The translations under genes and the position numbers were made by a program. From Patescibacteria group bacterium (GTDB lineage Bacteria > Patescibacteriota > Patescibacteriia > JACRDY01), in NCBI GenBank assembly GCA_041653535.1, contig JBAZFH010000002.1, positions 173,011-237,010 on the forward strand: a stretch of DNA of 64,000 nucleotides, written 5' to 3'. Positions 4,035 through 57,677 of the stretch are shown here, in pieces; position 1 is the first letter of the stretch; the number at the start of each line of letters is the position of its first letter. The notes below the pieces were generated by a model. It was not told where the DNA came from and made no database searches. It worked only from the letters and a program-made list of their open reading frames with translations.

Positions 4035-6041
4035 ATGAATGTTACTGAGCTAGCACGAAAACTAAGAGTAACAACAAAAGAGCTACTGGAACTTTTGCCG
4101 CAGCTTGGTTTTGATATTGGCGCGCGAGCGATAAAAGTTGATCCGCGGGTAGCGTCGCAAATTTTACGGGAATGGCCGCGTTTTTATCGTGAACATCAGG
4201 CTAAGCTTGAGGCTATTCGCAAGCAAAAATTAATCGAAGAACGTAAGCTCAAAATGCAGGACAGCGGTCCGGTAAAACTGTCGGCAGTGATGACTGTCCG
4301 TGAATTCGCGGAAAAATTGGAAGTGCCGGTCAATCAGGTGATCGCCGAACTGATGAACAATGGAATCTTGGCAACGCTTAATGAGAGAATAGACTATGAC
4401 ACCGCTGCCATCGTGGCGGAAGGTTTTGGTTTTACGGTAGAAAAGTCGGAAGATGTCGCTTCCGACGTTGATATCGATAAGGATAAAAGAATAAGAGATA
4501 TCCTTGATAGTGCTGATAAAGAAAAATTGCAAGCACGTCCGCCGGTAGTAGTGGTGATGGGTCACGTCGATCACGGCAAAACTAAATTACTCGACGCTAT
4601 TCGTAAAACAAACGTTATTGATACGGAACACGGCGGTATTACTCAACACATCGGCGCGTATCAAACCATTTTTCAGGGACGGGCGATCACTTTTATCGAC
4701 ACTCCTGGTCACGAGGCTTTTACTACTATGCGTTCCCGCGGTGCCAAGGTCGCCGATATCGCCATACTTGTAGTAGCTGCCGATGATTCGATAAAACCGC
4801 AAACCGTGGAAGTAATTCAGATTTTACAGGCGCTCAATTTGCCTTTTATCGTGGCGATAAATAAAATCGATAAACCAGATGCCAATATTGAAAAGGTAAA
4901 ACAAGATTTGGCGCAGCGAAATTTATTGCCAGAAGATTGGGGCGGCAAAGTTGTTTGTGTGCCTATTTCCGCTAAACAAGGAACTAATATTAATCAACTT
5001 CTGGAGATGATCTTGTTGATTATGGATTTGAATAAAGAAAAAACTATGGCCGATCCTACCGGTCCGGCATGCGGTACTATTATCGAAGCTCATAAAGATG
5101 CCGGCGAAGGAGCCGTGGCAACATTGTTAGTGCAAACCGGTACTTTAAAAGTAAATGATATTTTGTCTATTAATGGCGCTTTTTACGGTCGGGTGCGGGC
5201 GATGAAAGATTGGATCGGCAAAGATGTTTTTGCCGCTCCGCCGGGAATGCCGGTCAAGATTTTAGGTTGGCGGGCGGAAGCCGCGGTCGGTGATATATTA
5301 GAAGTCGTATCCGATGTCAAAAAACTAAACGAACAAAAGATAAAGAAGCAAAAACCGTCGTCTGTTTCTAGCGCCGTAGTAACGCAAACCGAAAATTCCA
5401 GCGAAGAAGACGAGGAGAAGATAAAGACTCTGAATATAGTTTTGCGCAGCGATGTACTGGGTTCGACCGAAGCGATTGTCGAATCTTTGGCTAAACTAGA
5501 AATTCCGCATGGTGTAAAGTATAAAATAGTTTCTCAAGGGCTGGGTAATATAGTTGAATCCGACGTTTTGCGTGCCGAAGGCGACAACGGCGTGGTACTC
5601 GGTTTTAACGTTCAGGTTACGCCACTGGCTAATAAAATAGCGGATGAAAAAAAGGTAGAGGTAAAAACCTATAAAATCATTTATGAGTTGCTTGATTTGG
5701 TAAGAACAAAACTAAACGCTATGATTGAAGTAGAGATTAAAGAAAACGATATCGGCAAGGTGGAAGTTTTGGCGTTATTTAGAAAAGATAAGGTTGGTCA
5801 AGTGGTTGGCGGTCGTGTTAAGTCTGGCAAGATAGAAACCGGAGCCAAGGTTCGCGTGATGCGCGAGAATCTTGATTTAGCGCGACTGAAAATTTTGGAG
5901 TTACAAACCACCAAGCAGATAGTCAAAGACGTAGAGAAAGGTTTTGAATGTGGTATTAAATTAGAAGGAAAATTTGAGGTAGCTGTTGGTGATACGCTGG
6001 AAGTCTATCAGGAAGAAATGATAGAGAGAAAAGTAAAATAA
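4035..6041 (+). CDS. infB: Translation initiation factor IF-2
   Basis: 668 aa. IF2_N helix (MNVTELARKL...), GTPase motifs GHVDHGKTKLLD, DTPGHEAF and NKID, and a conserved C-terminal beta-barrel region. Confidence 0.95.
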   Translation: MNVTELARKLRVTTKELLELLPQLGFDIGARAIKVDPRVASQILREWPRFYREHQAKLEAIRKQKLIEERKLKMQDSGPVKLSAVMTVREFAEKLEVPVNQVIAELMNNGILATLNERIDYDTAAIVAEGFGFTVEKSEDVASDVDIDKDKRIRDILDSADKEKLQARPPVVVVMGHVDHGKTKLLDAIRKTNVIDTEHGGITQHIGAYQTIFQGRAITFIDTPGHEAFTTMRSRGAKVADIAILVVAADDSIKPQTVEVIQILQALNLPFIVAINKIDKPDANIEKVKQDLAQRNLLPEDWGGKVVCVPISAKQGTNINQLLEMILLIMDLNKEKTMADPTGPACGTIIEAHKDAGEGAVATLLVQTGTLKVNDILSINGAFYGRVRAMKDWIGKDVFAAPPGMPVKILGWRAEAAVGDILEVVSDVKKLNEQKIKKQKPSSVSSAVVTQTENSSEEDEEKIKTLNIVLRSDVLGSTEAIVESLAKLEIPHGVKYKIVSQGLGNIVESDVLRAEGDNGVVLGFNVQVTPLANKIADEKKVEVKTYKIIYELLDLVRTKLNAMIEVEIKENDIGKVEVLALFRKDKVGQVVGGRVKSGKIETGAKVRVMRENLDLARLKILELQTTKQIVKDVEKGFECGIKLEGKFEVAVGDTLEVYQEEMIERKVK

Positions 6042-6067
6042 TTAATGATTAACAATTAATAATTTAT

Positions 6068-6391
6068 ATGTCTGAGATTATATTAGATGACAAAAATTTT
6101 GAGGCAGAAGTACTCGCCTCTGACGTGCCGGTGCTTGTAGATTTTTATGCCGTTTGGTGCGGTCCGTGCAAAATACAGGGGCCGATGATTGATGAATTAG
6201 CCGAGGAGATGAAGGACCAAAAAGTAAAAATCGCCAAACTGGACGTTGACAAAGCGCCGGAATTTTCCCAGAAATACGAAATTATGTCTGTTCCTACCTT
6301 GATTATTTTTAAAGGCGGGCAAATAGTCGAACGCATGACTGGGATGAGAACAAAAGAGGAATTAAAAGAAAAGTTGGAAAAGTTAATATAA
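6068..6391 (+). CDS. trxA: Thioredoxin
   Basis: 107 aa with the WCGPC active site and the VPTLIIFKGG motif. Confidence 0.95.
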   Translation: MSEIILDDKNFEAEVLASDVPVLVDFYAVWCGPCKIQGPMIDELAEEMKDQKVKIAKLDVDKAPEFSQKYEIMSVPTLIIFKGGQIVERMTGMRTKEELKEKLEKLI

Positions 6392-6414
6392 TATAATAAG
6401 TTTTTAGAATATTT

Positions 6415-6447
6415 TAAAACTCCGTTTATTGGGCGGAGTTTTTTAAT
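6415..6447. terminator. Intrinsic terminator shared by convergent trxA and the TrmB-like gene
   Basis: AAAACTCCG (6416-6424) pairs with CGGAGTTTT (6434-6442), followed by a T-run. It overlaps the last codons of the minus-strand gene. Confidence 0.5.
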
Positions 6448-7211
6448 ATTATCCCGCTAGACACGGACCACAATCCTTCAAATATCGCGAGCATGGTATC
6501 GTGAAATTCTTTTGATTGGATTAGTACTGCCGACAGTTCTTTGAGTGAAGAAATAATCAGCACTTTGTCATCGTAAATATCGATGACTGAAGAAAATTTT
6601 CCGTACATTACCGGCGGCAGGACGCGAGGGTTGCGTTCCAGGAGCTGTTGCGGGGTCATTAGTTTTTGACTTTCTTGGTATTCCCAGAGCGATCGGCTGG
6701 TAATACCTTTGGCTTGGCGGGTTTCCACGAAATATTTGGCGTAATTTTTATCAAATTCAGAAAAAAAGTTTTTAATGGGAGAAATAATATCCCAGTGTTT
6801 TGATTTGCAGTAGAGTGCGTCTTCGATTACTGTTTTTACGCCCTCGATCCCTTCATAGTGATAGACGCTGATTTTATTTTCCGGCTGTTCCATGCTTTGT
6901 AGCAGGAGCGGGATAATAGCGGAGATTTCACCTTTTTGTTTTTCTAGCATTCTAATTTTTTCTTGGAGCAGGTTTTGGATGTTTTTCGGGTCGGTGGCGG
7001 TGAAAAGTATTTTTTGTCCGGAAATTTTTTTCCCGACCAGTCCCTTGTCTGTCAAAGTGCCTAGGGCGTGATAAATTGTCGTCCGGTTAACGTTGGTTTG
7101 TTTGACCAGTTCATTTACCCCGATCGTCGAGTATTTCAAAGCAGCGAGGTATATCTTTACTTCAGTTTGCGTCAGACCTAGATTTTTTAGAGAGTCGGTG
7201 ATTTGGGACAT
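6426..7211 (-). CDS. TrmB-family transcriptional regulator
   Basis: The ORF track gives 6426..7310. I trimmed it to the ATG at 7211 (MSQITDSLKNLGLTQTEVKIYLAALKY...NRTTIYHALGTLTDKGLV, a TrmB winged helix). The 33 upstream codons are translated low-complexity leader repeat. Confidence 0.7.
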   Translation of the reverse strand: MSQITDSLKNLGLTQTEVKIYLAALKYSTIGVNELVKQTNVNRTTIYHALGTLTDKGLVGKKISGQKILFTATDPKNIQNLLQEKIRMLEKQKGEISAIIPLLLQSMEQPENKISVYHYEGIEGVKTVIEDALYCKSKHWDIISPIKNFFSEFDKNYAKYFVETRQAKGITSRSLWEYQESQKLMTPQQLLERNPRVLPPVMYGKFSSVIDIYDDKVLIISSLKELSAVLIQSKEFHDTMLAIFEGLWSVSSGIILKNSAQ

Positions 7212-7248
7212 ATTGGTAGTTGGTAGATGGTAGTTGGGGATTAGGGTC
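7212..7248. repeat. G/T-rich short-period repeat (ATTGGTAGTTGGTAGATGGTAGTTGGGGATTAGGGTC)
   Basis: Direct reading. On the minus strand it is a G-free C/A/T leader that abuts the TrmB-like ATG. It matches 25 of 37 positions with 11069-11105 in the same orientation. Confidence 0.6.
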
Positions 7249-7464
7249 AAGAGAAATAAGAAATTGGAAATGACTATTATAATAATATTAGTTATTGATG
7301 GTTTTGTCAAAGATTGTTTGTAATGAAATATATTTAAAATTAGATAAAAAATTTATTTGTTTATCAATAGTTATAAACACATATTAACACTTTTGGTATT
7401 TAGCTGTTAAATATAGGTGGAAAAAGAACATTAAAAATTGAAACAAACAAAAAGGAGGATAACG

Positions 7465-8349
7465 ATGATTATCGATGTCCATACCCATACTACTACGCAC
7501 GATCTGTGGGATTTACATACCAAAACCGCCACACTGACCGATCTGGAAGGATTGGCCGCGCAGTACGACGTCAGGAAAATCATCCTGATGGCAACGTATT
7601 TTCCGACCAAAGGCACGGGACTGCACAATTTGGATCTGCTGCGCCGAATCGGAGAAAGCAAACTTTTTGCCATGTGCGCCAGTCTAAACGCTATGACTGC
7701 TGACGGTCTACACATCGGTCTGCAGGAGATCAGCCTCTTGGCGCGAGAAAAAATGATCGTCGGGATTAAGCTCTATCCCGGTTATCAAAATTTTCACCTT
7801 TCCGATCGACGAATCGATCCACTGTATGAGCTCGCGGAAAAGTATCGTTTGCCGGTGACGGTTCATACCGGTGAGTTGCATCACTGCTGCCCGGTCAAAG
7901 ATCGGGGAGAGGGTCGCGGTCGCTGCGGTCAAGTCTGCCCGATTGACGAGTGGCAAAATTTGGCGCGACCGTCGCAGATTATCGAAGCAGCGACACGCTT
8001 TCCCGAAGTCAATTTTGTGCTGGCACATCTGGCCAATCCCTACTTCAGTGAGTTGCTGTATGACGTGATGGCAGTATTGCCAAACGTCTACACGGATATT
8101 TCCGGACAGTTTCGTTCGGGAACAGAAGAAGCGACTGAGGAATACAAAGATGAAGTGTTGGCGCAAATCAAAATGTTTATTTCGTCAGGGCAAGCCGGCA
8201 TCGATCGAGTGATGTTTGGTACAGACTTTCCTATTCAGTCTTACGCCGACACGGTTGATTTCGTGGAACGGCTGGGACTAGGTAAAGAAGACAAGGAAAA
8301 AATCTACTGGCGTAACGCCGCAAGGCTGTTTGCGTTGGATATAGGGTAA
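7465..8349 (+). CDS. Amidohydrolase-superfamily (TIM-barrel metal-dependent hydrolase) protein
   Basis: Start set at the ATG 7 nt after AAGGAGG. MIIDVHTHTTTHD (HxH metal motif), VTVHTGE, and LAHLANPY...FGTDFP. Contains a Cys-rich insert HHCCPVKDRGEGRGRCGQVCP. Confidence 0.7.
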   Translation: MIIDVHTHTTTHDLWDLHTKTATLTDLEGLAAQYDVRKIILMATYFPTKGTGLHNLDLLRRIGESKLFAMCASLNAMTADGLHIGLQEISLLAREKMIVGIKLYPGYQNFHLSDRRIDPLYELAEKYRLPVTVHTGELHHCCPVKDRGEGRGRCGQVCPIDEWQNLARPSQIIEAATRFPEVNFVLAHLANPYFSELLYDVMAVLPNVYTDISGQFRSGTEEATEEYKDEVLAQIKMFISSGQAGIDRVMFGTDFPIQSYADTVDFVERLGLGKEDKEKIYWRNAARLFALDIG

Positions 8350-8360
8350 GGAGACGGAAT

Positions 8361-9056
8361 ATGGAAAGAAAAAGAATTTTGGTTACCGCCGGGTCCACAG
8401 TAGTGCCTATTGATCAGGTGCGAGTTATTTCCAATATCTTTAAGGGCAAAACCGGAACGGCTATTGCTGCACATTTTGCAGAGCGAGGACACGGCGTGAC
8501 TTTGCTCACCTCAAATCCAGAGCTGCTTGAAGATTACCGCGAGATCAGCAATGGCTGGAATATTCAGGTGGTGAAATTCCGGACGTTCAACGACCTGGCT
8601 AGCGCAATGAAAAAGCTGATCACTGCCGGCGCATATGACATGATCGTTCATTCGGCCGCAGTCAGCGACTATCAGGTCGCTCAAGTACTGACGAAAGATG
8701 TAGGAGGTCAGTTGTTGCCACTAGACGCTGGTACAAAAGTTTCTTCTCGGCACGGCAAGCTGTATCTGGAAATGGTGCCGACAGCAAAATTGATCGACAA
8801 GATTCGGACCGATTGGGGTTTTGCCGGCTATCTGGTCAAGTTCAAACTGCAGGTGGGAATCGGCGACGGAGAGCTAGTCAATATCGCCCGTCAGAGCCGA
8901 GCTGATTCGGCATCAGACCTAATCATCGCCAACTGTCTGGAGTGGGCCGCTCAATATGCCTATGCTATTGGGTCTGATAATACGGCAGAGAAAATTTCGC
9001 GGGAAAAAATCGGCGAGACGATTGAAAGGAGGGCGGGTTGGTATGACGAAAAATAA
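8361..9056 (+). CDS. CoaB-like phosphopantothenate-cysteine ligase domain protein (stand-alone)
   Basis: 231 aa. ILVTAGSTVVPIDQVRVISNIFKGKTG and HSAAVSDYQV match the CoaB (DFP C-terminal domain) motifs. SD AAGGAG lies 7 nt upstream. Confidence 0.65.
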   Translation: MERKRILVTAGSTVVPIDQVRVISNIFKGKTGTAIAAHFAERGHGVTLLTSNPELLEDYREISNGWNIQVVKFRTFNDLASAMKKLITAGAYDMIVHSAAVSDYQVAQVLTKDVGGQLLPLDAGTKVSSRHGKLYLEMVPTAKLIDKIRTDWGFAGYLVKFKLQVGIGDGELVNIARQSRADSASDLIIANCLEWAAQYAYAIGSDNTAEKISREKIGETIERRAGWYDEK

Positions 9057-9702
9057 AGTTTTACTCGGGCTGACTGGGAGTGTAGCTTCCAAGCTCGACA
9101 GGCAAATTGTGGCAGCGCTAAAAGCAGAAGGTTGCGAGGTGATCGTTGTTCCAACTATTGCTTCGCTGTATTTCAGCTGGTCTCTCAAGCTCGAGTTTGT
9201 TAAAGCGTTGCTAGCAAGCAAGCTTGGCTTACTTGGTAGGATGTTAGCGCGGGTAATCGAGCTATTGTTTCCAAGCAAACTCGGAGCGCCGGTAGTTACC
9301 GATGCCGCCGAATGGCGCGGACTCAACTACAAAAAAAATATGCCGATCGAGCATATTGTCTTGCGCGACTGGGCTGATGTGCTGGTAATCGCGCCGCTGT
9401 CGGCTAACACGCTTGGCAAAATCGCAAACGGTCTAGCAGACAATCTACTGACTTGTATTGTCCGCGCTTGGGATCCGGCCAAACCAGTTGTGCTGGCACC
9501 GGCTATGAATACCAAGATGTGGCAGTCGTCGTTTACCGCAACGCACTTGCAAAGTTTGAAAAATATTTTTCAGCTGTGTGTAGTGCCACCGGTAAGTAAA
9601 AAGTTGGCTTGCGGCGATGAAGGAGTTGGTGCACTGGCTGCTATTACTGACATCGTCGCTGCTGTCGGCGTTGCCACAAAATCGTCTCTCGACGTTGTCT
9701 AG
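9043..9702 (+). CDS. HFCD-family flavoprotein (CoaC-like phosphopantothenoylcysteine decarboxylase)
   Basis: Start trimmed to ATG 9043 (SD AAGGAGG 9 nt upstream; 14-nt overlap with the CoaB-like gene). LGLTGSVAS, HIVLRDWADVLVIAPLSANTLGKIANGLADNLL, PAMNTKMW and LACGDEGVGAL. A roughly 40-aa insert follows the first strand. Confidence 0.7.
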   Translation: MTKNKVLLGLTGSVASKLDRQIVAALKAEGCEVIVVPTIASLYFSWSLKLEFVKALLASKLGLLGRMLARVIELLFPSKLGAPVVTDAAEWRGLNYKKNMPIEHIVLRDWADVLVIAPLSANTLGKIANGLADNLLTCIVRAWDPAKPVVLAPAMNTKMWQSSFTATHLQSLKNIFQLCVVPPVSKKLACGDEGVGALAAITDIVAAVGVATKSSLDVV

Positions 9703-9733
9703 TTGCAAATAACCTGAAAAAAAGGAGCGGTCA

Positions 9734-9991
9734 ATGGAAGCGTACAAAACAGTTTGTCCAGATTGCGGCTATGTCCGGTTTTGGACCGGTTGGAAAACCG
9801 GTTTGGGCAAGACCAAAGAACAGCTGGAACAGATGAGCCGTGATTTCAAGACATGCAAGAAATGCGGTTCGGTTAACGCCAAAACCGGTTCTGACCGTGA
9901 GTCTGAAATAGGCCGCGATTTTGCTGCCATGGACAAAGAGGCAGTGCGAGTCATTGGCGATTTTATCAAAGAACGGTTGGGGGTAAAATAG
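9734..9991 (+). CDS. Small zinc-ribbon protein (85 aa), unknown function
   Basis: CPDCG...CKKCG pair. SD AAAGGAG lies 6 nt upstream. Confidence 0.5.
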   Translation: MEAYKTVCPDCGYVRFWTGWKTGLGKTKEQLEQMSRDFKTCKKCGSVNAKTGSDRESEIGRDFAAMDKEAVRVIGDFIKERLGVK

Positions 9992-9992
9992 A

Positions 9993-10250
9993 ATGAAAGT
10001 CCGTGTTTATGGAGAAGATAAGGCAGGACTTGTCGCTGATACAACGGTGATTCAAATAACGTGTCCGCATTGCAACAGCGATCTGGACGTGACTTTTAGC
10101 GACATCAGTCGTTGTGCCGGTTTTCGTCACGATGTAGATGCTTGCGGAGTAAGGACTTGCTGCGGTGCCTGCAATCAGTATTTTCTCATTTCGCAAGACA
10201 AGATGCCAAAAAATTGGCTAAAGGCGTTATTTCCGCCTGATGAGTTTTGA
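9993..10250 (+). CDS. Small Cys-rich protein (85 aa), unknown function
   Basis: CPHC...C...C..CCGAC. The start is 1 nt after the previous stop, suggesting translational coupling. Confidence 0.5.
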   Translation: MKVRVYGEDKAGLVADTTVIQITCPHCNSDLDVTFSDISRCAGFRHDVDACGVRTCCGACNQYFLISQDKMPKNWLKALFPPDEF

Positions 10251-10260
10251 AAAAAAACAA

Positions 10261-10286
10261 AACCCCGTACCAAGTATGGGGTTTTT
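10261..10286 (+). terminator. Intrinsic terminator
   Basis: AACCCCGTA-CCAAG-TATGGGGTT (one GU pair) followed by TTT. Confidence 0.7.
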
Positions 10287-10352
10287 AAAATATTGACTTT
10301 TTTCTGTTATTATTCTAAGTTATATAGTTAAATAAAAAAGGAGGGCGTTAAC

Positions 10353-10724
10353 ATGTACAGAGACATTGAACCGGATGGACGCGTCCGCAGCGTTCTTTTC
10401 GCGGGATGGCTGGTTGTTGTGGGGTTGATGATCACCGTATTCTTTTTTCACATTTTAGGAAAGGTTGCTTGGGGGTTGTTTATTGCTCTTTATTCTTTGC
10501 CCTGGTGCATTTGGGGGTTTGTCACTATCGGCGCTTATGTTTTGCAGTTTAAAATGAACATGACGATGGGTAGTGGCAGTAAGGAAAAAAAAGAAGATTG
10601 GCGACGCGGCGGCAACAGACGGTACAGATATTCTGGTATTCCGGGGGGAAATTCCAGTGGTCTTTGGAATCAAGGTCGGGTTTGGGATCCGGAAAAAAAC
10701 CAATGGGAAGAAAAAAAGGAGTAA
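10353..10724 (+). CDS. Small membrane protein with a Gly/Arg/Trp-rich tail (123 aa)
   Basis: Two to three hydrophobic helices, then a charged tail KEKKEDWRRGGNRRYRY.... SD AAGGAGGG lies about 8 nt upstream. Confidence 0.5.
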   Translation: MYRDIEPDGRVRSVLFAGWLVVVGLMITVFFFHILGKVAWGLFIALYSLPWCIWGFVTIGAYVLQFKMNMTMGSGSKEKKEDWRRGGNRRYRYSGIPGGNSSGLWNQGRVWDPEKNQWEEKKE

Positions 10725-10758
10725 TGAGACGACTTAAATAACGCGAGGAGGGGAGAAA

Positions 10759-10983
10759 ATGAACCGCGTTAAGCAAGAGCCAAAACCCGGCAGAAAGTGC
10801 GTTCTTTGCGGTATGCCGCTGAGTATGTACAATCCAAACAATCAGTGTTTTTGTCATCAAACAGGGTTGAAAAACGACCCCTTGTTTCTACGAGTAGAAA
10901 AAACTGGTTGTTTTTCAACTGGAATTCGGGGCTTCGATTTTCGTCGGACCATGTCCGACTACGAAGGAAGATCGGTTGATTAA
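10759..10983 (+). CDS. Small putative zinc-binding protein (74 aa)
   Basis: KCVLCG...CFCH motif. SD GAGGAGGGGAG is upstream. Confidence 0.45.
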   Translation: MNRVKQEPKPGRKCVLCGMPLSMYNPNNQCFCHQTGLKNDPLFLRVEKTGCFSTGIRGFDFRRTMSDYEGRSVD

Positions 10984-10989
10984 AAATCT

Positions 10990-11026
10990 ATCCGCCCGAT
11001 ACACTAGTCGGGCGGATTTTTATTTT
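10990..11026 (+). terminator. Strong intrinsic terminator closing the SD-bearing block
   Basis: Perfect 10-bp stem ATCCGCCCGA (10990-10999) / TCGGGCGGAT (11008-11017), followed by TTTTTATTTT. Confidence 0.8.
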
Positions 11027-11068
11027 CTTGAAAAAAAAGGTTAAAAGTAGTACACTGCTACTGCTTTA

Positions 11069-11105
11069 TTTGGTAGCTGCGGATTGGTGGTTGATGATTG
11101 GGATC
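11069..11105. repeat. G/T-rich short-period repeat (TTTGGTAGCTGCGGATTGGTGGTTGATGATTGGGATC)
   Basis: Direct reading. Similar to 7212-7248. Also the 5' arm of a GU-rich pairing with 11178-11197. Confidence 0.6.
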
Positions 11106-11164
11106 TAGAAAATTTTTCTAACCATCCGCCTACGTCCGCCGCCGCGGACTTCGGCGAGGCAAGC

Positions 11165-11199
11165 TAACCATTAACCATTAATCATTAATCATTAATTAC
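11165..11199 (+). repeat. Five tandem heptamers TAACCAT/TAATCAT/TAATTAC forming a G-free trxB leader
   Basis: TAACCAT x2, TAATCAT x2, TAATTAC x1. The array ends 7 nt before the trxB ATG, and there is no G in 11165-11206. Confidence 0.85.
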
Positions 11200-11206
11200 T
11201 ATTTTT

Positions 11207-12148
11207 ATGGAAAATCAATACGATGTTGTCATCGTCGGTGGCGGTCCGGCTGGTATCGTTGCCGCTATTTATGCCGCGCGTAAACAATTAAATACCGTTA
11301 TTATCACCCCTGACCTCGGCGGTCAGATGGCGATTACCAACCATATAGAAAATTACCCCGGTTTTGAAAATATTTCCGGTCCAGAGTTGGTAAACAAATT
11401 TCGTTTGCAGGTGGAAAAGCTGGGCGGTAAATTTATTTTTGATCAAGTCGTCGGTATAGAGCCGGTTGACAGTATTTTTAAAGTCAAAACTTCTGGCAGG
11501 GAATTTATGACTCGAACAGTTGTCCTGGCTTTTGGTTTGACACCACGAGGGCTAGATGTTCCCGGAGAAGAAAAGTTTAAAGGACGCGGTATCGCTTTCT
11601 GTGCTACTTGTGACGCGCCGCTTTATAAAGGAAAAACCGTGGCAGTAGTTGGCGGTGGTAACAGCGCGATGGAAGCTATTACCGAGTTGTCTAAAATCGC
11701 TACCAAAGTTTATGCCACGCATCGCGGCGACAAATTTAGCACCGCTGATCCAGTCGAAGTAGAAAAGATTAGTGGTTACGCCAATGTCGAAGTGATGTTG
11801 AACAGTGAAATCACAGGGTTTATCGGGGATAAAAAATTAGAAAAAATTTTGGTTCATAATAATAAAAATGAAAAGCCGGATTTTGAGTTGGCGGTCGACG
11901 GCGTGTTTTTAGAAATCGGTTACGTGACTAAAACCGACTGGCTAAAAGGGTTTGTGGATATTGATGAAAAAGGACATGTATTAATCAATGAAAAGGCCGA
12001 AACTTCTCGACCCGGCGTTTATGCCGCTGGTGATGTGACCAATACGACTTATAAACAAATTGTTATTTCCGGCGGCGAGGGTGCCAAAGCCGCGTTGTCA
12101 GCTTATAAATATTTAAACAACTCCAAAACGGTTACGCCGGATTGGTAG
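11207..12148 (+). CDS. trxB: Thioredoxin-disulfide reductase
   Basis: 313 aa. GGGPAG FAD motif, redox-active CATCDA, GGGNSAMEA NADPH motif, and GDVT....KQ. Confidence 0.95.
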   Translation: MENQYDVVIVGGGPAGIVAAIYAARKQLNTVIITPDLGGQMAITNHIENYPGFENISGPELVNKFRLQVEKLGGKFIFDQVVGIEPVDSIFKVKTSGREFMTRTVVLAFGLTPRGLDVPGEEKFKGRGIAFCATCDAPLYKGKTVAVVGGGNSAMEAITELSKIATKVYATHRGDKFSTADPVEVEKISGYANVEVMLNSEITGFIGDKKLEKILVHNNKNEKPDFELAVDGVFLEIGYVTKTDWLKGFVDIDEKGHVLINEKAETSRPGVYAAGDVTNTTYKQIVISGGEGAKAALSAYKYLNNSKTVTPDW

Positions 12149-15009: not shown

Positions 15010-18000
15010 ATGAATGAATATAATCACCAAGAAATAGAAAAGAAATGGCAGAAGGTTTGGACAGGGCAAAATATTTATCGCACTCGAGAAGACAAGGGTA
15101 GACCCAAGTTTTACATTTTGGATATGTTTCCCTATCCCTCTGGTGTGGGACTACATGTTGGTCATCCCAAAGGATATATTGCTACTGATATTTTTGGTCG
15201 GGCTAAATCAATGCAGGGCTACAATGTGCTCCATCCCATGGGATGGGACGCTTTTGGCTTGCCGGCAGAAAACTACGCTATCCAAAACAAAGTTCATCCG
15301 CGCCAGGCGACAGAAGAAAATATCAAAACTTTCAAAAATCAGCTAGCCATACTCGGTTTCACTTACGATTGGGAAAGAGAAATCAATACTACTGACCCGG
15401 CGTATTACAAATGGACGCAGTGGGCTTTTATTCAGATGTTCAAAAAAGGTCTTGCTTACGAATCATACGAGCCGATCAACTGGTGTCCATCTTGCAAAAC
15501 CGGTCTAGCCAACGAAGATCTGGAAAACGGTCTTTGCGAACGTTGCGGTTCAGAAGTAGAACGTAAACCCATTCGACAGTGGGTGCTAAAGATTACCGAT
15601 TACGCCGACCGACTACTAAACGATTTGGAAAAATTGCCGGACTGGGAAGAGTCGATCAAAGAAATGCAGAGGAATTGGATTGGGAGGTCGGAGGGGGTAG
15701 AGATAGAATTTAAAATTAAAAATAATGGTGAGCAGCAGTATAACCCACCAATTAATTGGTGGGTTAACAGTGGTGACGGAGACGTTTGGTTTTTTGTTAC
15801 TTTCCCGACTTACAGCCGAGGTTTATTTTTTGAAGAGCAAGGTGAGGCTCAGAAAATAATCAATATTTTTGAGCAGATTGTTAAGGAAAAAAAATATCAA
15901 GTGGCAGATATCGCGGTTATGCCAGAGCACGTACACCTGCTTGTTAAACGCGGAAAAAAAGACGATTTGGAAAAGATTGTTAAAAACCTCAAAGGTATTA
16001 GTTCTCGTTTGTATGATCAAAGCGAGGAGCATTTATGGGCTAAAAGTTTTGAATACGAAACGATAGAGAACCAAGTAGATTTTGATAAGGTGATTAGTTA
16101 TTTACAAAATAATCCGATCAAGGCGGGTTTGCCAAAAGATGGTAGACTTTTATCCGAGTATCGGATGACTACGATTGGTGGGTCAGTCGACAGGATTAAG
16201 GTGTTTACTACTCGACCGGACACGCTCTATGGCGCAACTTATTTAGTATTGTCGCCGGAGTACGCGTGGTTAAACTCAGTGTCGCCGGAGTACGCGTGGT
16301 TAAACCACCAATTAATTGGTGGTTTAACCAATGCAGATGAAGTGGTGGCTTATATCGAGAAGACCAAGCAAAAAACCGATCTAGCTCGCCAGGCGGAAAA
16401 AGAAAAAACCGGCGTTGAGTTAAAAGGCATCAAAGCTATCAATCCGGTTAATGGCGACGAGCTGCCGATTTTTATTGCCGACTATGTTTTGTCCAGTTAC
16501 GGCACGGGAGCTATCATGGCAGTGCCAGCTCACGATGAAAGAGATTTTGAATTTGCCAAGAAATTTAACTTGCCGATCATTCCGGTTATTAAAGATGAGG
16601 ATAAAGATAAACGTGGAACAATTTTGGTTATTCATGGACTATGCGGAAATTCTAATGAAAATTGGTTTCCGTGGTTAAAAGATAATGCCCAAAAAATTGG
16701 TTATGAGGTTTTAGTCCCAGATCTACCAAATGCAGATGAACCAAAAATGGAAGAATGGTTGTCGGTTTTAGCTGGTCTAAAAGAAAAATTAGTTGGTGAG
16801 ATAATTGTAATTGGTCATAGTTTGGGCGCTGCAGTGGCTTGTAAATTTGTTGAAGAAAATAATTTGAAAATAAATAAGTTAATTTTAGTTGCGCCGACTG
16901 GGTCAAGTCAAGGTGAAGATAATTGGCAAGCGTTAAAAAGTGCTGGTGTAACAGATAGTGGCATTCAAGCAATTAAAGATTTTAACGGAGTGAAAATTGA
17001 TTGGAAAAATTTGCAAAGTTTAATCGAAAGTCCGTTTATTTGTATGTCAGACAATGATCCATATATTCCGTTGGAAGTTCAGAATGATTATAAAGGAATA
17101 AATCCGGCAATTAGAATATTTTCTAACTGCGGTCATTTTAATCAAAAAGCGGGTTTTATCAAGTTTCCTGAATTAATGGCGGAGATCATGGATGGGGCTT
17201 ATGTCGGCAAAGGTGGTTTGGTTAATTCAGGAGAATTTGATGGTATGGAAGTTGATGAAGCCAAGAAAAAAATTACTAAAAAAGTTGGCGGCAAACTGAC
17301 CGTCCAATACAAACTTCGCGATTGGGTGTTTTCTCGCCAGCGTTATTGGGGCGAGCCGATTCCGCTCGTCAAATGCGACAAATGCGGCTGGGTAGCAGTA
17401 CCGGAAAAAGATTTGCCGGTCGAGCTTCCTGATGTAAGATTTTACGAGCCAACCGGTACGGGTGAATCACCGCTAGCTAATATTACCGACTGGGTAAATA
17501 CCACTTGCCCGGAGTGCGGCGGACCAGCTAAACGTGAAACCAACACCATGCCACAGTGGGCTGGATCATCTTGGTATTATTTACGTTATATCGATCCGCA
17601 CAATGATACGGCGCTAGTCGACAAGAAAAAAGAAAAATATTGGTCGCCGGTTGATTTTTACGTTGGTGGAGCTGAGCACGCGACACGACATTTGATTTAC
17701 GCTAGATTTTGGCACAAATTTTTGTATGATATTGGCGCGGTAAATTATGATGAGCCGTTTAAGAGATTGCAACACGTTGGATTGATACTAGCTGAAGACG
17801 GTCGCAAGATGAGTAAGCGTTGGGGCAACGTGATAAACCCAAACGATATCGTCCGCGATTATGGCGCTGACGCCATGCGTGTTTACGAAATGTTTATGGG
17901 ACCTTTTTCGCAACCCTGCGCTTGGAGTACAGATGGGTTGGTTGGAGCTAGAAGATTTTTGGTTAAGATATGGAAATTGCAAGATAAAGTAAAGGAGACG

Positions 18001-18474
18001 GAAATTGAGAAATTAGAAATTAAGAAATTGGTTCATAAGACGATTAAAAAGGTTACCGAAGATATTGAAAACTTTAGGTTCAACACCGCTATCTCGGCGA
18101 TGATGATTTTGGTTAACGAAATGGAAAAGGAAGAAAGTATTTCAGCCGCCAATTTTCAATTTCTCATTTCTATATTATCTCCTTTTGCTCCGCATATCTG
18201 CGAAGAGTTGTGGCAAAAGCTTGGTCACATTGACAGTATTACTGTGCGGCCTTGGCCGAAATATGACGAGAAGCTGATTGTTGACGACGTTGTTAGCTTA
18301 GTCGTTCAGGTCAACGGCAAACTAAGAGAAAATATTGAAGTAGCAAAAGACATCACGGAAAAAGAAGCAACCGAGCTGGTGCTAGCAAGCGAAAAAATAC
18401 AGAAATGGCTAGAAGGGAAAACACCAAAGAAAATAATTTTTGTTCCGGGTAAATTAATTAATATAGTTGTTTAA
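15010..18474 (+). CDS. leuS: Leucine-tRNA ligase with two large in-frame insertions (1154 aa)
   Basis: HIGH motif (HVGHPKGY), CP1 editing motif TTRPDTLYGATY, AHDERDFEFA, RDWVFSRQRYWGEPIP, KMSKS motif (RKMSKRWGN), and a C-terminal anticodon-binding region, all in one frame. About 300 codons longer than the 860-aa E. coli LeuRS. Confidence 0.95.
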   Translation: MNEYNHQEIEKKWQKVWTGQNIYRTREDKGRPKFYILDMFPYPSGVGLHVGHPKGYIATDIFGRAKSMQGYNVLHPMGWDAFGLPAENYAIQNKVHPRQATEENIKTFKNQLAILGFTYDWEREINTTDPAYYKWTQWAFIQMFKKGLAYESYEPINWCPSCKTGLANEDLENGLCERCGSEVERKPIRQWVLKITDYADRLLNDLEKLPDWEESIKEMQRNWIGRSEGVEIEFKIKNNGEQQYNPPINWWVNSGDGDVWFFVTFPTYSRGLFFEEQGEAQKIINIFEQIVKEKKYQVADIAVMPEHVHLLVKRGKKDDLEKIVKNLKGISSRLYDQSEEHLWAKSFEYETIENQVDFDKVISYLQNNPIKAGLPKDGRLLSEYRMTTIGGSVDRIKVFTTRPDTLYGATYLVLSPEYAWLNSVSPEYAWLNHQLIGGLTNADEVVAYIEKTKQKTDLARQAEKEKTGVELKGIKAINPVNGDELPIFIADYVLSSYGTGAIMAVPAHDERDFEFAKKFNLPIIPVIKDEDKDKRGTILVIHGLCGNSNENWFPWLKDNAQKIGYEVLVPDLPNADEPKMEEWLSVLAGLKEKLVGEIIVIGHSLGAAVACKFVEENNLKINKLILVAPTGSSQGEDNWQALKSAGVTDSGIQAIKDFNGVKIDWKNLQSLIESPFICMSDNDPYIPLEVQNDYKGINPAIRIFSNCGHFNQKAGFIKFPELMAEIMDGAYVGKGGLVNSGEFDGMEVDEAKKKITKKVGGKLTVQYKLRDWVFSRQRYWGEPIPLVKCDKCGWVAVPEKDLPVELPDVRFYEPTGTGESPLANITDWVNTTCPECGGPAKRETNTMPQWAGSSWYYLRYIDPHNDTALVDKKKEKYWSPVDFYVGGAEHATRHLIYARFWHKFLYDIGAVNYDEPFKRLQHVGLILAEDGRKMSKRWGNVINPNDIVRDYGADAMRVYEMFMGPFSQPCAWSTDGLVGARRFLVKIWKLQDKVKETEIEKLEIKKLVHKTIKKVTEDIENFRFNTAISAMMILVNEMEKEESISAANFQFLISILSPFAPHICEELWQKLGHIDSITVRPWPKYDEKLIVDDVVSLVVQVNGKLRENIEVAKDITEKEATELVLASEKIQKWLEGKTPKKIIFVPGKLINIVV
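15741..15766. repeat. 26-nt perfect palindrome TAACCCACCAATTAATTGGTGGGTTA
   Basis: Checked base by base. The 18-nt core CCACCAATTAATTGGTGG is at 15745-15762. It is translated as NPPINWWV. Confidence 0.95.
16250..16305 (+). repeat. Tandem duplication (26-nt unit, 30-nt period) TGTCGCCGGAGTACGCGTGGTTAAAC
   Basis: 16250-16275 and 16280-16305 are identical. Together they encode SPEYAWLN-SV-SPEYAWLN. Confidence 0.95.
16298..16329. repeat. 32-nt perfect palindrome GGTTAAACCACCAATTAATTGGTGGTTTAACC
   Basis: Checked base by base. It carries the same 18-nt core at 16305-16322. It is translated in a different frame from the first copy, as LNHQLIGGLT. Confidence 0.95.
16591..17190 (+). other. Alpha/beta serine-hydrolase domain (YdeN/RBBP9-like) inserted in-frame in leuS
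   Basis: TILVIHGLCGNSNENWFPWLK...YEVLVPDLPNADEP...VIGHSLGA (Ser codon 16819-16821)...LILVAPTG...SDNDPYIP...NCGHF (His codon 17134-17136). It lies between LeuRS motifs AHDERDFEFAKKFNLPI and GGLVNSGEFDG. Confidence 0.75.
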
Positions 18475-57400: not shown

Positions 57401-57677
57401 CGGATCCACGCAGAATAATAATCTTACGTCGCCTTTTTACAAGACATATTTTAGGTCTTCGCTTGGCGAGCACCAGCATTTTTTGGCCAATGGTTATGCT
57501 AATGGTTGGTGGATTAAGCGACCGGACTGCCTTGAACAAGGAGATAAGTGTCAGAATTTCGAAATCATTATTGAATTTTGGCCACAAAGGATTTATTATC
57601 TCGGTGGCTTGATTTCCGGTCTGTCATTTTGTTTGATATTGTTTTATTTGATCAAAAAAATACGGTCGAGGGAATAA
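54459..57677 (+). CDS. Giant polytopic membrane protein, GT-C-like (AftD/DUF3367-like), 1072 aa
   Basis: N-terminal GLLIAGGDNDWYLNP...WSGLKSAGE loop, many TM helices, a large soluble C-domain, and a C-terminal module INPTKYKV...GYANGWWI...IIEFWPQR plus a TM anchor shared with 35901-38342. Confidence 0.5.
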   Translation: MIVLEKIKKYWPILFILVLGSLPLVWFRDGLLIAGGDNDWYLNPVKLFHDALYTWSGLKSAGEINFLVCHIFPLPAFWALLKLVGLSLVNIQRLWTILIFVTPALSIYYLVIRYFGADKKEVKYQLVGLLAAILYSFNMFLINSPLNSVASPVLAIMPLMLWFFISALEQEKFSFKYPAAISVLSIFLFFSNTNLAEVSIIPLVLGLYLLFFVAFNFKFFKIVHAFKVVVASVVAYLAVNSWWLLIISFSFVEAASKAGEIVKSISFVERSYLFEVFRLMGFWAFRIKTGAGLSNVPYSDLYYQPLLIILTYLIPLVVFFALIFRPRDKKIIFFSLIFLLGIFLAKGTNEPFGVVYGFLFEKIPGFWVFRNPYSKFMPLTIFGFSILYGLSAADIYYGAKKWFVTKIKNRQRAVAMALIILVFLGLLPIAAAWPILTGKFLSDASWYGTPEKSMHVQVPDYWQQANKWFTENDPEGRVLLLPKAGYGHCYKWLSGICTGGYVANYLIPNPIISYPNLKIDSPYDNTIDSLFSYIKPQTRVDLAELLGVFNIKYILQQDDLLWQRAGTDSYSPEQIKNILAEQPGIEFIKNFGKLNLYQIKGDYYVQRIFAPRKVSYTSSKDPLETSQAVLLNKKNVTEESMFEIKDGLDSSDKDLIATKRLADTNGYSLDIPAQAEYDFYLIQKPISPQVVVCAGCPSGFGISLGDEYSGKQLFFTKAISGGVYFDNDKKISLSWRRSIKIYPLDVNDVGIDSPIVGWSFIQNVGAVDLYGSQLSENFPEDYKTSSEAKIFFAGFRDGQQLGEDWGVEIFPDSFEIGTMKTRRVVVSVPAGTRPGEGYRFVYLKKPSMLSDLDFGSNVGTSSVLSVGSASLAAGNHRVLLTGLTSEDLDKMTFVAKKKVVEGGVVVPKITFKKINPTKYKVMVSGAVTDFSLVFSENFNTFWRVYVFPQVFLSQRELSGKPFSPVSSSGPVDADFVSEEYGGSTQNNNLTSPFYKTYFRSSLGEHQHFLANGYANGWWIKRPDCLEQGDKCQNFEIIIEFWPQRIYYLGGLISGLSFCLILFYLIKKIRSRE

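What the first reader, a model, noticed from the sequence alone, without database searches (positions are those of the whole stretch)
7465..9702. Amidohydrolase plus stand-alone CoaB-like ligase plus HFCD flavoprotein as one coupled operon
Seen directly:
- Three tightly coupled genes, with an 11-nt gap and then a 14-nt overlap.
- The CoaB-like and CoaC-like halves are separate proteins. They are in the order ligase then decarboxylase, the reverse of the fused bacterial Dfp (CoaC-CoaB).
- A metal-dependent amidohydrolase with a Cys-rich insert precedes them.
- The flavoprotein has the PAMNTKMW and LACGDEGVGAL motifs and an insert of about 40 aa.

Established: CoaB activates a carboxylate with CTP and adds cysteine. 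HFCD enzymes decarboxylate a cysteinyl moiety, in CoA biosynthesis and also in peptide maturation by LanD/EpiD-type enzymes.

Inference: either this is a minimal acquired 4'-phosphopantetheine salvage module, which would be notable if the host lacks the rest of CoA synthesis, or it is a cysteine-ligation/decarboxylation chemistry acting on a different carboxylate substrate. I cannot tell which from the sequence.
Basis: partly seen in the sequence, partly recalled or inferred. Interest (0 to 1): 0.55.

Follow-up and report, generated by a model that had tools for sequence, protein, structure and literature searches.

The report
Hydrolase-coupled coenzyme A precursor operon
A tiny-genome (Patescibacteria) bacterium carries a compact, probably acquired operon in which two coenzyme A-building enzymes are always preceded by an uncharacterised hydrolase, and in sister genomes and giant phages that slot holds a homologue of human TANGO2, a disease protein of unknown function tied to coenzyme A.

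Summary
Window 7465-9702 encodes an Amidohydro_2 hydrolase, a stand-alone CoaB/PPCS-like ligase and a CoaC/PPCDC-like flavoprotein, with an 11-nt gap and a 14-nt overlap.

The two CoA enzymes look genuine:
- The ligase keeps the invariant PPCS residues, and its model matches only PPCS structures.
- The flavoprotein core is 59% identical to plant PPCDC and keeps the His, Asn and clamp Cys, so it is not LanD-like.

The hydrolase-ligase-decarboxylase order is a conserved cassette:
- 26 of 32 close hydrolase homologues in GTDB genomes have it.
- It recurs in DPANN archaea next to archaeal-type CoaBC.
- In Paceibacterota it runs on into a fused CoaD-CoaE gene.

The slot before CoaB is filled by unrelated amide hydrolases: Amidohydro_2 in 24 loci, TANGO2 in 12, an HExxH-like protein in 9 and an M23-like protein in 4. 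One TANGO2 operon lies behind an orthologous TrmB regulator. Predicted phage contigs of up to 458 kb carry the pair.

The cassette also includes a divergent TrmB gene and a conserved zinc-ribbon ORF (9993-10250), and its GC is 0.49 against 0.40 for the window.

Best reading: a CoA-precursor module whose hydrolase supplies or regenerates 4'-phosphopantothenate. That reaction is inferred, not shown. Whether the genome has a pantothenate kinase could not be checked.

The parts
6426..7211 (-). TrmB-family transcriptional regulator, divergent from the operon. The ORF runs to a TTG at 7310, but homologues start at the Met at 7211.
   Evidence: PF01978 at E 2.5e-13. Orthologues scoring more than 268 bits lie divergently upstream of the cassette in 12 other loci. 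One lies upstream of the TANGO2-type operon L166 and is 47% identical over 255 aa.
7212..7464 (.). AT-rich divergent intergenic region, presumed promoter and operator, with the ribosome-binding site AAAGGAGGA at 7451-7459
   Evidence: GC is 0.28-0.30. There are promoter-like hexamers on the minus strand. Sequence read. No Rfam family was found.
7465..8349 (+). Metal-dependent TIM-barrel hydrolase of a narrow Amidohydro_2 subfamily, with a lineage-specific HHCC..C..C insert
8361..9056 (+). Stand-alone CoaB-type phosphopantothenate-cysteine ligase (PPCS-like)
   Evidence: PF04127 at E 1e-27. Best solved relatives are 2gk4, and human PPCS in entries 7edz and 1p9o. R21, N25, D103 and K126 are invariant in the family. 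The model's top 45 PDB matches are all PPCS structures.
9043..9702 (+). Stand-alone CoaC-type phosphopantothenoylcysteine decarboxylase (PPCDC-like HFCD flavoprotein), with a loop insert of about 30 aa at residues ~45-80
   Evidence: PF02441 at E 3e-28. AtHAL3a matches at E 1e-41, with 73 of 124 residues identical; human PPCDC matches at E 5e-40. His (PIEHIVLRDWAD), PAMNTKMW and the ACGD Cys are conserved across homologues.
9734..9991 (+). Small zinc-ribbon ORF (85 aa) with its own ribosome-binding site, 31 nt after coaC. No homologue was found in other loci.
9993..10250 (+). Conserved small zinc-ribbon protein (CxxC...H...CxxC, (I/L)PxxW, acidic C-terminal tail), a fourth component of Amidohydro_2-type cassettes
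   Evidence: Homologous ORFs of 70-80 aa lie between the hydrolase and coaB, or just upstream of the hydrolase, in 10 other distinct loci. This ORF marks the end of the high-GC block.

Best explanation
This is a self-contained operon, probably acquired horizontally and regulated by TrmB, that makes the coenzyme A precursor 4'-phosphopantetheine.

Proposed steps:
1. The CoaB-like protein activates 4'-phosphopantothenate with a nucleoside triphosphate and ligates L-cysteine to it.
2. The CoaC-like flavoprotein oxidatively decarboxylates the cysteinyl moiety and, through its clamp cysteine, reduces the ene-thiol to the thiol.
3. The amidohydrolase is a dedicated third enzyme of the same process. 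Its likely role is to hydrolyse an amide of 4'-phosphopantothenate, so that the carboxylate needed by CoaB is supplied or regenerated without a pantothenate kinase. Candidate substrates are 4'-phosphopantetheine or CoA-derived species whose thiol end is blocked, oxidised or mis-made.

Shown here: the domain identities, the catalytic residues, the folds, the conservation of the gene order, the genetic link to CoaD-CoaE, and the replacement of the hydrolase by non-homologous amide hydrolases.

Inferred: the hydrolase's substrate, that it acts before CoaB, and the absence of a pantothenate kinase.
For: Enzyme identity:
- PPCS: Pfam and NCBIfam matches, solved relatives, invariant R, N, D and K residues (their roles are taken from PMC7794376), and a fold that matches only PPCS structures.
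- PPCDC: 59% identity to AtHAL3a with the His, Asn and Cys kept.

Functional coupling of the hydrolase:
- 26 of 32 close homologues in GTDB species genomes have coaB and coaC immediately downstream, often with 4-nt overlaps, in otherwise unrelated flanks.
- DPANN archaeal homologues (30-34% identical) sit directly upstream of archaeal-type CoaBC or of CoaC plus CoaB. One of these has a NUDIX gene between CoaC and CoaB.

Link to CoA synthesis:
- The order Amidohydro_2, DFP, Flavoprotein, Aldolase_II-like, MBL-fold, fused CoaD-CoaE occurs in L180. L071 and L079 are similar.
- Phage contig L168 has CoaB, CoaC and a CoaD-CoaE-like gene in a row, and L131 has a CoaD-like gene beside CoaC.

A slot for an amide hydrolase:
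- Of 60 classifiable CoaB-anchored loci, 24 have Amidohydro_2, 12 TANGO2, 9 an HExxH/DUF1570-like protein, 4 an M23-like protein and 11 none.
- L166 has the order TrmB(-), TANGO2, DFP, Flavoprotein, with a 2-nt gap and a 4-nt overlap. Its TrmB is orthologous to the window's.
- TANGO2-type loci fall in at least 3 places among Amidohydro_2-type loci in the CoaB tree.

Other points:
- No pantothenate kinase motif was found in the ORFs of the window or of the first 165 related loci.
- The hydrolase ligand pattern (HxH, Lys, His, His, Asp) is that of binuclear hydrolases.
Against: - No substrate is demonstrated. Structural neighbours of the hydrolase are only generic Amidohydro_2 lactonases and decarboxylases at 13-26% identity.
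- Both CoA enzymes score well below the NCBIfam equivalog cut-offs: 98 bits against 217, and 107 against 261.
- The CoaB loop reads NIFKG where known PPCS have N-x-S-S/T-G.
- Coupling is not obligatory. 4 of 32 close hydrolase homologues stand alone, and 11 of 60 CoaB loci have no hydrolase nearby.
- Distant hydrolase homologues in Gemmatimonadota are not next to CoaBC.
- If intact 4'-phosphopantetheine were available, CoaB and CoaC would not be needed, so the physiological source of the substrate is unclear.
- The rest of the genome could not be inspected for coaA, coaX, coaD or coaE.
Confidence: 0.45

Rival explanations
1. These are ordinary split housekeeping coaB and coaC genes, with an unrelated amidohydrolase that merely shares the transcription unit. 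The hydrolase has no role in CoA metabolism.
For: Separate CoaB and CoaC are known from streptococci and eukaryotes (NCBIfam coaB_strep and coaC_strep hits; PDB 2gk4, 1qzu and 1e20). Some hydrolase homologues occur without CoaBC, and some CoaB-CoaC pairs occur without a hydrolase.
Against: - The adjacency survives complete turnover of the flanking genes.
- It holds across bacteria and archaea and across three CoaBC architectures: split CPR-type, split archaeal-type and fused.
- Translational coupling is common.
- The slot is refilled by other hydrolase families behind the same regulator.
Confidence: 0.15
2. The three enzymes form a cysteamine-producing cycle. CoaB and CoaC build 4'-phosphopantetheine on a catalytic pool of 4'-phosphopantothenate. 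The hydrolase then cleaves it, releasing cysteamine as a low-molecular-weight thiol and regenerating the carrier.
For: It uses the same hydrolase chemistry as the best explanation. It accounts for a self-contained three-gene unit that phages can carry. In the window the cassette sits between thioredoxin and a thioredoxin-reductase-like gene. The animal precedent, cysteamine arising only from pantetheine hydrolysis, rests on established knowledge of vanin pantetheinases.
Against: Clusters that continue into CoaD-CoaE imply that 4'-phosphopantetheine goes on to CoA rather than being destroyed. The cycle costs one NTP per cysteamine. The thioredoxin neighbours are not conserved in other loci.
Confidence: 0.12
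3. The hydrolase supplies the other substrate, L-cysteine, by cleaving a cysteine-containing peptide or an N-acyl-cysteine. This would serve organisms that cannot make cysteine.
Against: General cysteine supply would not be expected to be tied specifically to CoaB-CoaC across domains and phages. Human TANGO2 is reported to bind CoA and acyl-CoA, according to Lujan et al. 2025 as cited in PMC13044924. NUDIX, MBL-fold and CoaD-CoaE neighbours point to the pantetheine side of the pathway.
Confidence: 0.08
4. This is scaffold-peptide chemistry outside CoA. The CoaB-like ligase adds cysteine to the acidic C-terminus of the small zinc-ribbon protein, the HFCD enzyme decarboxylates it, and the hydrolase releases the product, in the manner of pearlin or LanD systems.
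For: A conserved 70-85 aa zinc-ribbon protein with an acidic C-terminal tail sits inside 11 cassettes. The slot occupants include peptidase-like families. HFCD enzymes of the LanD type act on peptide C-terminal cysteines (established knowledge).
Against: - The flavoprotein is 59% identical to a bona fide PPCDC and keeps the clamp Cys, which the LanD enzymes lack (established knowledge). It matches EpiD and MrsD only at about 1e-9.
- The ligase model matches only PPCS structures.
- The small protein is absent from most cassettes, including all TANGO2-type ones.
- The pair is linked to CoaD-CoaE.
Confidence: 0.05

Closest known systems
Monofunctional type III PPCS (CoaB) of Streptococcus and Enterococcus (TIGR02114; PDB 2gk4) and eukaryotic PPCS (human 1p9o and 7edz; yeast Cab2)
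   Same: Same fold. The best sequence and structure matches are to these proteins. It has a single-Lys 'K-[IV]-S-S' loop like these enzymes, rather than the bacterial K-X-K-K. The R, N and D active-site residues are invariant. It is a stand-alone protein.
   Different: Only 26-28% identity. It scores 98 bits against the 217-bit equivalog cut-off. The phosphate-loop motif is NIFKG instead of N-x-S-S/T-G. It is encoded immediately after a hydrolase.
Eukaryotic phosphopantothenoylcysteine decarboxylase (AtHAL3a, 1e20 and 1mvl; human PPCDC, 1qzu)
   Same: 59% and 50% identity over the catalytic core. The catalytic His, the PXMNXXMW Asn and the ACGD clamp Cys are all conserved.
   Different: It is bacterial. 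The N-terminal third is divergent and carries a variable loop insert of about 30 aa. It falls below the bacterial coaC_strep cut-off.
Bifunctional bacterial and archaeal CoaBC (Dfp)
   Same: The same two reactions are expected. DPANN relatives of the hydrolase sit next to a fused CoaBC (L042).
   Different: Here the two are separate proteins in ligase-then-decarboxylase order. Similarity to CoaBC is much weaker: E 1e-12 for the CoaC part and 1e-7 for the CoaB part.
LanD-type HFCD peptidyl-cysteine decarboxylases (EpiD, MrsD, CypD)
   Same: The flavoprotein fold and the oxidative decarboxylation of a cysteinyl moiety.
   Different: Only weak matches, at about 1e-9. The clamp cysteine that completes the reduction to a thiol is present here. 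No lanthipeptide genes are nearby.
Amidohydro_2 (PF04909) enzymes: LigI and COG3618 lactonases, ACMSD, gamma-resorcylate and 5-carboxyvanillate decarboxylases, and the uncharacterised BB4693 (3irs)
   Different: 13-26% identity. The ligand set is HxH, Lys (beta4), His, His, Asp, which is typical of binuclear hydrolases rather than of the mononuclear decarboxylases or the metal-free LigI (inference). The subfamily is narrow, with 106 cluster representatives at E <= 1e-30. No member has been characterised.
TANGO2 (PF05742; human TANGO2, PDB 8sv7)
   Same: It occupies the same operon slot, in the order TrmB, hydrolase, CoaB, CoaC, in sister Patescibacteria and in predicted phage contigs. Both are predicted hydrolases of non-peptide amides. 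Human TANGO2 is clinically linked to CoA and vitamin B5 (PMC11179719, PMC13044924).
   Different: A completely different fold: a Cys N-terminal-nucleophile hydrolase against a metal-dependent TIM barrel. It is not present in this window. Its substrate is also unknown.
Pantetheinase (vanin) and PTER N-acetyltaurine amidohydrolase
   Different: Vanins are nitrilase-fold, extracellular, and act on unphosphorylated pantetheine. PTER is only a remote structural relative. Neither is known to be coupled to PPCS or PPCDC.

Membership tests
PPCS / CoaB (phosphopantothenate-cysteine ligase) | DFP (PF04127) domain and PPCS fold | tested here: met
   PF04127 at E 1e-27. The AlphaFold2 model has pLDDT 92. 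Its top 45 PDB matches are all PPCS structures, followed by a gap from E 2e-9 to 1e-3.
PPCS / CoaB (phosphopantothenate-cysteine ligase) | Active-site residues equivalent to M. smegmatis R207, N211 and D281, plus the triphosphate-binding Lys loop | tested here: met
   R21, N25, D103 (in SAAVSDY) and K126 (in K-V-S-S) are invariant in 34 family members. Their roles are taken from PMC7794376.
PPCS / CoaB (phosphopantothenate-cysteine ligase) | Score above the curated equivalog cut-off (TIGR02114, NF005231 or TIGR00521) | tested here: not met
   98, 104 and 88 bits against cut-offs of 217, 265 and 220. It is a divergent clade.
PPCS / CoaB (phosphopantothenate-cysteine ligase) | Catalyses NTP-dependent ligation of L-cysteine to 4'-phosphopantothenate | not testable with these tools
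   Needs an enzyme assay or complementation of a dfp mutant.
PPCDC / CoaC (HFCD flavoprotein) | Flavoprotein domain with the catalytic His, the PXMNXXMW Asn and the substrate-clamp Cys (ACGD) | tested here: met
   PF02441 at E 3e-28. PIEHIVLRDWAD, PAMNTKMW and LACGDEGVGAL are conserved in 15 homologues. 59% identity to AtHAL3a.
PPCDC / CoaC (HFCD flavoprotein) | Score above the curated equivalog cut-off (TIGR02113) | tested here: not met
   107 bits against 261. That model is built on the streptococcal type, and the closest relatives here are eukaryotic.
LanD-type peptidyl-Cys decarboxylase | Closest to EpiD, MrsD or CypD; no clamp Cys; encoded with precursor-peptide and lanthipeptide genes | tested here: not met
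   EpiD and MrsD match only at E 2e-9 to 1e-8, against 1e-41 for AtHAL3a. The clamp Cys is present. No such neighbours exist.
Bifunctional Dfp / CoaBC | CoaC and CoaB fused in one polypeptide, with CoaC N-terminal | tested here: not met
   Two ORFs with separate ribosome-binding sites, ligase first.
Amidohydro_2 (PF04909) metal-dependent hydrolase | (beta/alpha)8 barrel matching PF04909 above the gathering score | tested here: met
Amidohydro_2 (PF04909) metal-dependent hydrolase | Binuclear metal centre (HxH on beta1, carboxylated Lys on beta4, His on beta5, His on beta6, Asp on beta8) and hydrolytic activity | tested here: inconclusive
   All six residues are invariant and fall at the ends of the predicted strands. 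Metal content, Lys carboxylation and activity cannot be tested here.
TANGO2 (PF05742) | Cys N-terminal-nucleophile alpha-beta-beta-alpha fold, with an MC start and the NRDE motif | tested here: not met
   The window's hydrolase is a TIM-barrel Amidohydro_2. TANGO2 occurs only in sister operons (L166: PF05742, MCT...NRDE, E 3e-7 to 8sv7). The relation is analogy of position, not membership.

The most novel reading that the evidence does not exclude
The Amidohydro_2 enzyme here, and TANGO2 in the sister operons and phages, catalyse the same undescribed reaction. They hydrolyse the pantothenoyl-cysteamine amide of thiol-damaged or thiol-blocked 4'-phosphopantetheine or CoA species. PPCS, PPCDC and then CoaD-CoaE rebuild a fresh thiol end.

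This would be a CoA 'thiol-end renewal' repair and salvage cycle that bypasses pantothenate kinase. It would also name the long-sought molecular function of human TANGO2, and would explain why vitamin B5 rescues TANGO2 deficiency.
Probability: 0.2. Interest if true: 0.9.

Novelty: new variant of a known kind. Interest (0 to 1): 0.65.

Why it matters
1. It defines a three- to four-gene CoA-precursor cassette spread through Patescibacteria, DPANN archaea and predicted phage contigs of up to 458 kb. The cassette contains an enzyme step absent from the textbook five-step pathway. These organisms are thought to depend on hosts for cofactors, so it bears on what they actually scavenge.

2. Unrelated amide hydrolases, including TANGO2, fill the slot in front of PPCS and PPCDC interchangeably. 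This is a rare piece of genomic-context evidence about TANGO2. The papers read here call its function a mystery (PMC11179719, PMC13044924). Its deficiency causes a life-threatening human disease that vitamin B5 alleviates. The operon turns that open question into a short list of testable substrates.

3. Ten full-text searches of the open-access library, four of them aimed at this cassette or at a TANGO2-PPCS/PPCDC link, found no paper describing either.

Tried and rejected
- **LanD or RiPP reading.** Rejected on the PPCDC-specific clamp Cys and the 1e-41 against 1e-9 similarity contrast.
- **Decarboxylase reading of the Amidohydro_2 protein.** Many family members are decarboxylases. It is judged unlikely because the HxH, Lys, His, His, Asp pattern is hydrolase-like. 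This is inference only.
- **Riboswitch or leader search.** Nothing in 6000-11500 reached a gathering score.
- **Flanking repeats or insertion scars.** Only short matches consistent with chance.
- **Other CoA genes.**
  - A motif scan for CoaA, CoaX, CoaD and CoaE found none in the window. In the first 165 related loci it found only CoaD-like and CoaD-CoaE genes and no pantothenate kinase.
  - This is a crude regular-expression test and not proof of absence.
- **Extending beyond the window.** The look-ups returned only short Logan contigs with no CoA genes.
- **Tying CoaD-CoaE to the source contig.** A CoaD-CoaE fusion search returned a small Paceibacterota family with no contig match.
- **Literature.** Ten full-text searches found nothing on this cassette.
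- **ABC half-transporter upstream of the hydrolase.** It is confined to one Uhrbacteria-like clade, so it is treated as lineage synteny and not as a component.


Full report
**1. Observation**

- 7465-8349 is an Amidohydro_2 protein (PF04909, E 1e-31).
- 8361-9056 carries the DFP/CoaB domain (PF04127, E 1e-27).
- 9043-9702 is an HFCD Flavoprotein (PF02441, E 3e-28).

The 11-nt gap and the 14-nt overlap are exact, and each start has a Shine-Dalgarno site. The PAMNTKMW and LACGDEGVGAL motifs and the Cys-rich insert are present.

Two details need correcting. The flavoprotein insert is about 30 aa and lies in a loop that varies among homologues. The operon does not end at 9702. Two zinc-ribbon ORFs follow, at 9734-9991 and 9993-10250, with a 31-nt and a 1-nt spacer.

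**2. Source and setting**

The ligase is 100% identical to a protein of a Patescibacteria MAG on a 323-kb contig. Its neighbours are housekeeping genes: IF-2, thioredoxin, a thioredoxin-reductase-like gene, glutamate dehydrogenase, RNase HII and LeuRS. A long glycosylation cluster follows.

The block 7465-10250 has GC 0.494. The other 47 genes average 0.404 +/- 0.032. GC3 of the three enzyme genes and the first zinc-ribbon ORF is 0.52-0.55, against 0.39 +/- 0.04 elsewhere; the second zinc-ribbon ORF (9993-10250) is at 0.42, within the range of the other genes. This suggests acquisition as a unit. No flanking repeats and no Rfam element were found.

**3. The two CoA enzymes**

Ligase:
- Its best solved relatives are the S. 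pneumoniae CoaB-type protein 2gk4 and human PPCS.
- R21, N25, D103 and K126 are invariant in the family. They correspond to the residues that the M. smegmatis CoaB structure paper places in the active site (PMC7794376).
- An AlphaFold2 model (pLDDT 92) matches 45 PPCS chains and nothing else until E 1e-3.

Flavoprotein:
- It matches plant AtHAL3a at E 1e-41 (73 of 124 residues identical) and human PPCDC at 5e-40.
- It matches bacterial CoaBC at 1e-12 and EpiD and MrsD at about 1e-9.
- The catalytic His, the Asn and the clamp Cys are conserved in all 15 homologues aligned.

Both proteins fall below the NCBIfam equivalog cut-offs. They form a divergent clade, but every defining residue and fold test that could be run was met.

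**4. The hydrolase**

The family is well conserved across Patescibacteria. The following residues are invariant: D4, H6, H8, K102, H134, H188, D211 and D254. In the model (pLDDT 95.8) they fall at the C-terminal ends of strands 1, 4, 5, 6, 7 and 8. That is the pattern of binuclear amidohydrolases with a carboxylated lysine. This is my inference.

The HHCC..C..C insert follows strand 5. It is confined to the main Patescibacteria clade, so it is probably a structural or regulatory metal site rather than part of catalysis.

Only 106 of 1.84 billion 50%-identity cluster representatives reach E <= 1e-30 against the family profile. The subfamily is narrow and uncharacterised.

**5. The trio is a conserved cassette**

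Three look-ups of ligase homologues gave the order Amidohydro_2, DFP, Flavoprotein in unrelated flanks.

In one-genome-per-species GTDB data, I looked at close hydrolase homologues with at least 1.5 kb downstream.
- 26 of 32 have coaB and coaC next.
- 2 have coaC only.
- 4 have neither.

DPANN archaeal homologues (30-34% identical) sit directly upstream of a fused archaeal-type CoaBC (L042) or of CoaC plus CoaB (L043, L044). In L043 a NUDIX gene lies between the two.

A distant Paceibacterota branch has this order: Amidohydro_2, DFP, Flavoprotein, Aldolase_II-like, MBL-fold, fused CoaD-CoaE (L180, with precomputed Pfam; L071 and L079). This is the strongest evidence that the module feeds CoA synthesis.

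No pantothenate kinase motif was seen in the ORFs of the window or of the first 165 related loci. This was a crude scan.

**6. The hydrolase slot**

I anchored on the ligase family in metagenomes and IMG/VR. 60 loci could be classified:

| Hydrolase next to CoaB | Loci |
|---|---|
| Amidohydro_2 | 24 |
| TANGO2 (PF05742) | 12 |
| HExxH/DUF1570-like | 9 |
| M23-like | 4 |
| none | 11 |

L166 is a Patescibacteria contig with the order TrmB(-), TANGO2, DFP, Flavoprotein. It has a 2-nt gap and a 4-nt overlap. Its TrmB is 47% identical to the window's. Its TANGO2 starts MCT, carries the NRDE motif, and matches human TANGO2 structures at E 3e-7.

In a neighbour-joining tree of the ligases, TANGO2-type loci fall in at least three places among Amidohydro_2-type loci. 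The HExxH-type and M23-type loci each form one clade. The tree has no support values and is indicative only.

I read this as repeated non-orthologous displacement of one amide hydrolase by another within a fixed operon frame.

**7. Phages**

Ten IMG/VR contigs, of up to 458 kb, carry the ligase-decarboxylase pair. Three or four of them have TANGO2 directly upstream.
- L168 continues into a CoaD-CoaE-like gene.
- L176 has a major head protein gene 1.5 kb from the ligase gene.

**8. Extra components**

A TrmB regulator lies divergently upstream in 12 other loci. A 70-85 aa zinc-ribbon protein, homologous to window ORF 9993-10250, lies between the hydrolase and coaB, or just upstream of the hydrolase, in 10 other distinct loci.

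**9. Mechanism**

Firmly supported: PPCS and PPCDC convert a 4'-phosphopantothenate-type carboxylate plus cysteine into 4'-phosphopantetheine, and a hydrolase is functionally tied to them.

Inferred: the hydrolase cleaves an amide of 4'-phosphopantothenate and so provides CoaB's substrate. Four points favour this reading.
- All slot occupants are amide hydrolases.
- The beta-alanyl-cysteamine amide has no side chains, like the Gly-Gly bonds that M23 enzymes prefer (my reasoning).
- The NUDIX and MBL-fold neighbours could release 4'-phosphopantetheine derivatives from CoA species.
- No kinase is ever part of the cluster.

The rivals are listed with their tests: pure synteny, a cysteamine cycle, cysteine supply, and scaffold-peptide chemistry on the zinc-ribbon protein.

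**10. Relation to known systems and novelty**

The two CoA enzymes are new members of known families, of the streptococcal/eukaryotic split type. The cassette as a whole, with its obligatory and interchangeable hydrolase, was not found in ten full-text literature searches.

Papers from 2024-2026 state that TANGO2's function is unknown. They propose a Cys-Ntn hydrolase and speculate on CoA salvage because vitamin B5 rescues the deficiency (PMC11179719, PMC13044924). The operon evidence gives that question a concrete and testable form.

**11. Limits**
- No substrate has been shown.
- ORF calling in the related loci was mechanical.
- Some loci may be near-duplicates despite filtering.
- Several GTDB record titles are probably mislabelled bins.
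- The rest of the source genome could not be examined for coaA, coaX, coaD or coaE.

Noticed in passing
window 15010-18474 (+): The 1154-aa leucyl-tRNA synthetase carries two foreign domains inside it. One is an IS200-like Y1 transposase domain (PF01797, aa 263-368, E 2e-15). The other is a serine or alpha/beta hydrolase domain (PF06821, aa 538-723, E 9e-19).
   Followed up: no
L006:5363-7117, L013:11560-13314, L009:7671-9668, L023:3610-4803, L042:13234-14094, L044:10773-11879, L180:5611-7095: A class II aldolase/adducin-like domain recurs in these cassettes in bacteria and DPANN archaea. It is fused to CoaC, fused to a CoaB-like part (in L009 also to a SAM methyltransferase), or present as a separate gene. 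Its role is unknown.
   Followed up: partly
L168-L177 (IMG/VR contigs of 38-458 kb): Predicted phage genomes, some of them huge, carry the CoaB-CoaC pair. Some also carry TANGO2 or a CoaD-CoaE-like gene. L176 has a major head protein gene 1.5 kb from the ligase gene.
   Followed up: partly
L138, L140, L147, L155, L158, L160, L163-L165 (GC 0.58-0.67): In high-GC contigs the same ligase-decarboxylase clade follows a conserved block: GT1 glycosyltransferase, a Kdo/WaaP-family kinase-like protein of about 570-600 aa, and an HExxH/DUF1570-like protein. Whether the kinase-like protein relates to pantothenate phosphorylation was not examined.
   Followed up: no
L017, L019, L027, L033, L106/L120, directly upstream of the hydrolase: A fused ABC half-transporter (ABC_membrane plus ABC_tran, about 590-680 aa) precedes the cassette on the same strand in one Uhrbacteria-like clade.
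   Followed up: partly
window 9734-9991 and 10353-10983: An orphan zinc-ribbon ORF lies directly after coaC. After the cassette come a 123-aa membrane ORF and a 74-aa Cys-rich ORF, all without homologues in the related loci. A strong bidirectional terminator-like hairpin follows at 10990-11017.
   Followed up: partly
window 6068-6391 and 11207-12148: Thioredoxin and a thioredoxin-reductase-like gene flank the inserted cassette. This arrangement is not conserved in other loci, so it is probably coincidental.
   Followed up: partly
window 18970-60350: A long same-strand envelope glycosylation cluster. It includes a nucleotidyltransferase, a GT2, a radical SAM protein (24428-25885), a 774-aa double GT4/GT1, and two GT-C AftD-like proteins (35901-38342 and 54459-57677).
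   Followed up: no
L011, L012, L015, L017, L018, L025, L028, L032, L035-L037 (GTDB records): Records titled 'uncultured Gammaproteobacteria' or 'Myxococcota' carry the Patescibacteria-type hydrolase at 45-52% identity, most of them with the full cassette. The bin labels are probably wrong.
   Followed up: no
L047-L085 (Gemmatimonadota, Longimicrobium, Vicinamibacteria): Distant members of the same hydrolase subfamily (27-31% identical). The catalytic residues are conserved and the Cys insert is absent. They occur in free-living phyla and are not next to CoaBC. Their neighbours include a mechanosensitive-channel-like gene and a Ser/Thr kinase.
   Followed up: partly
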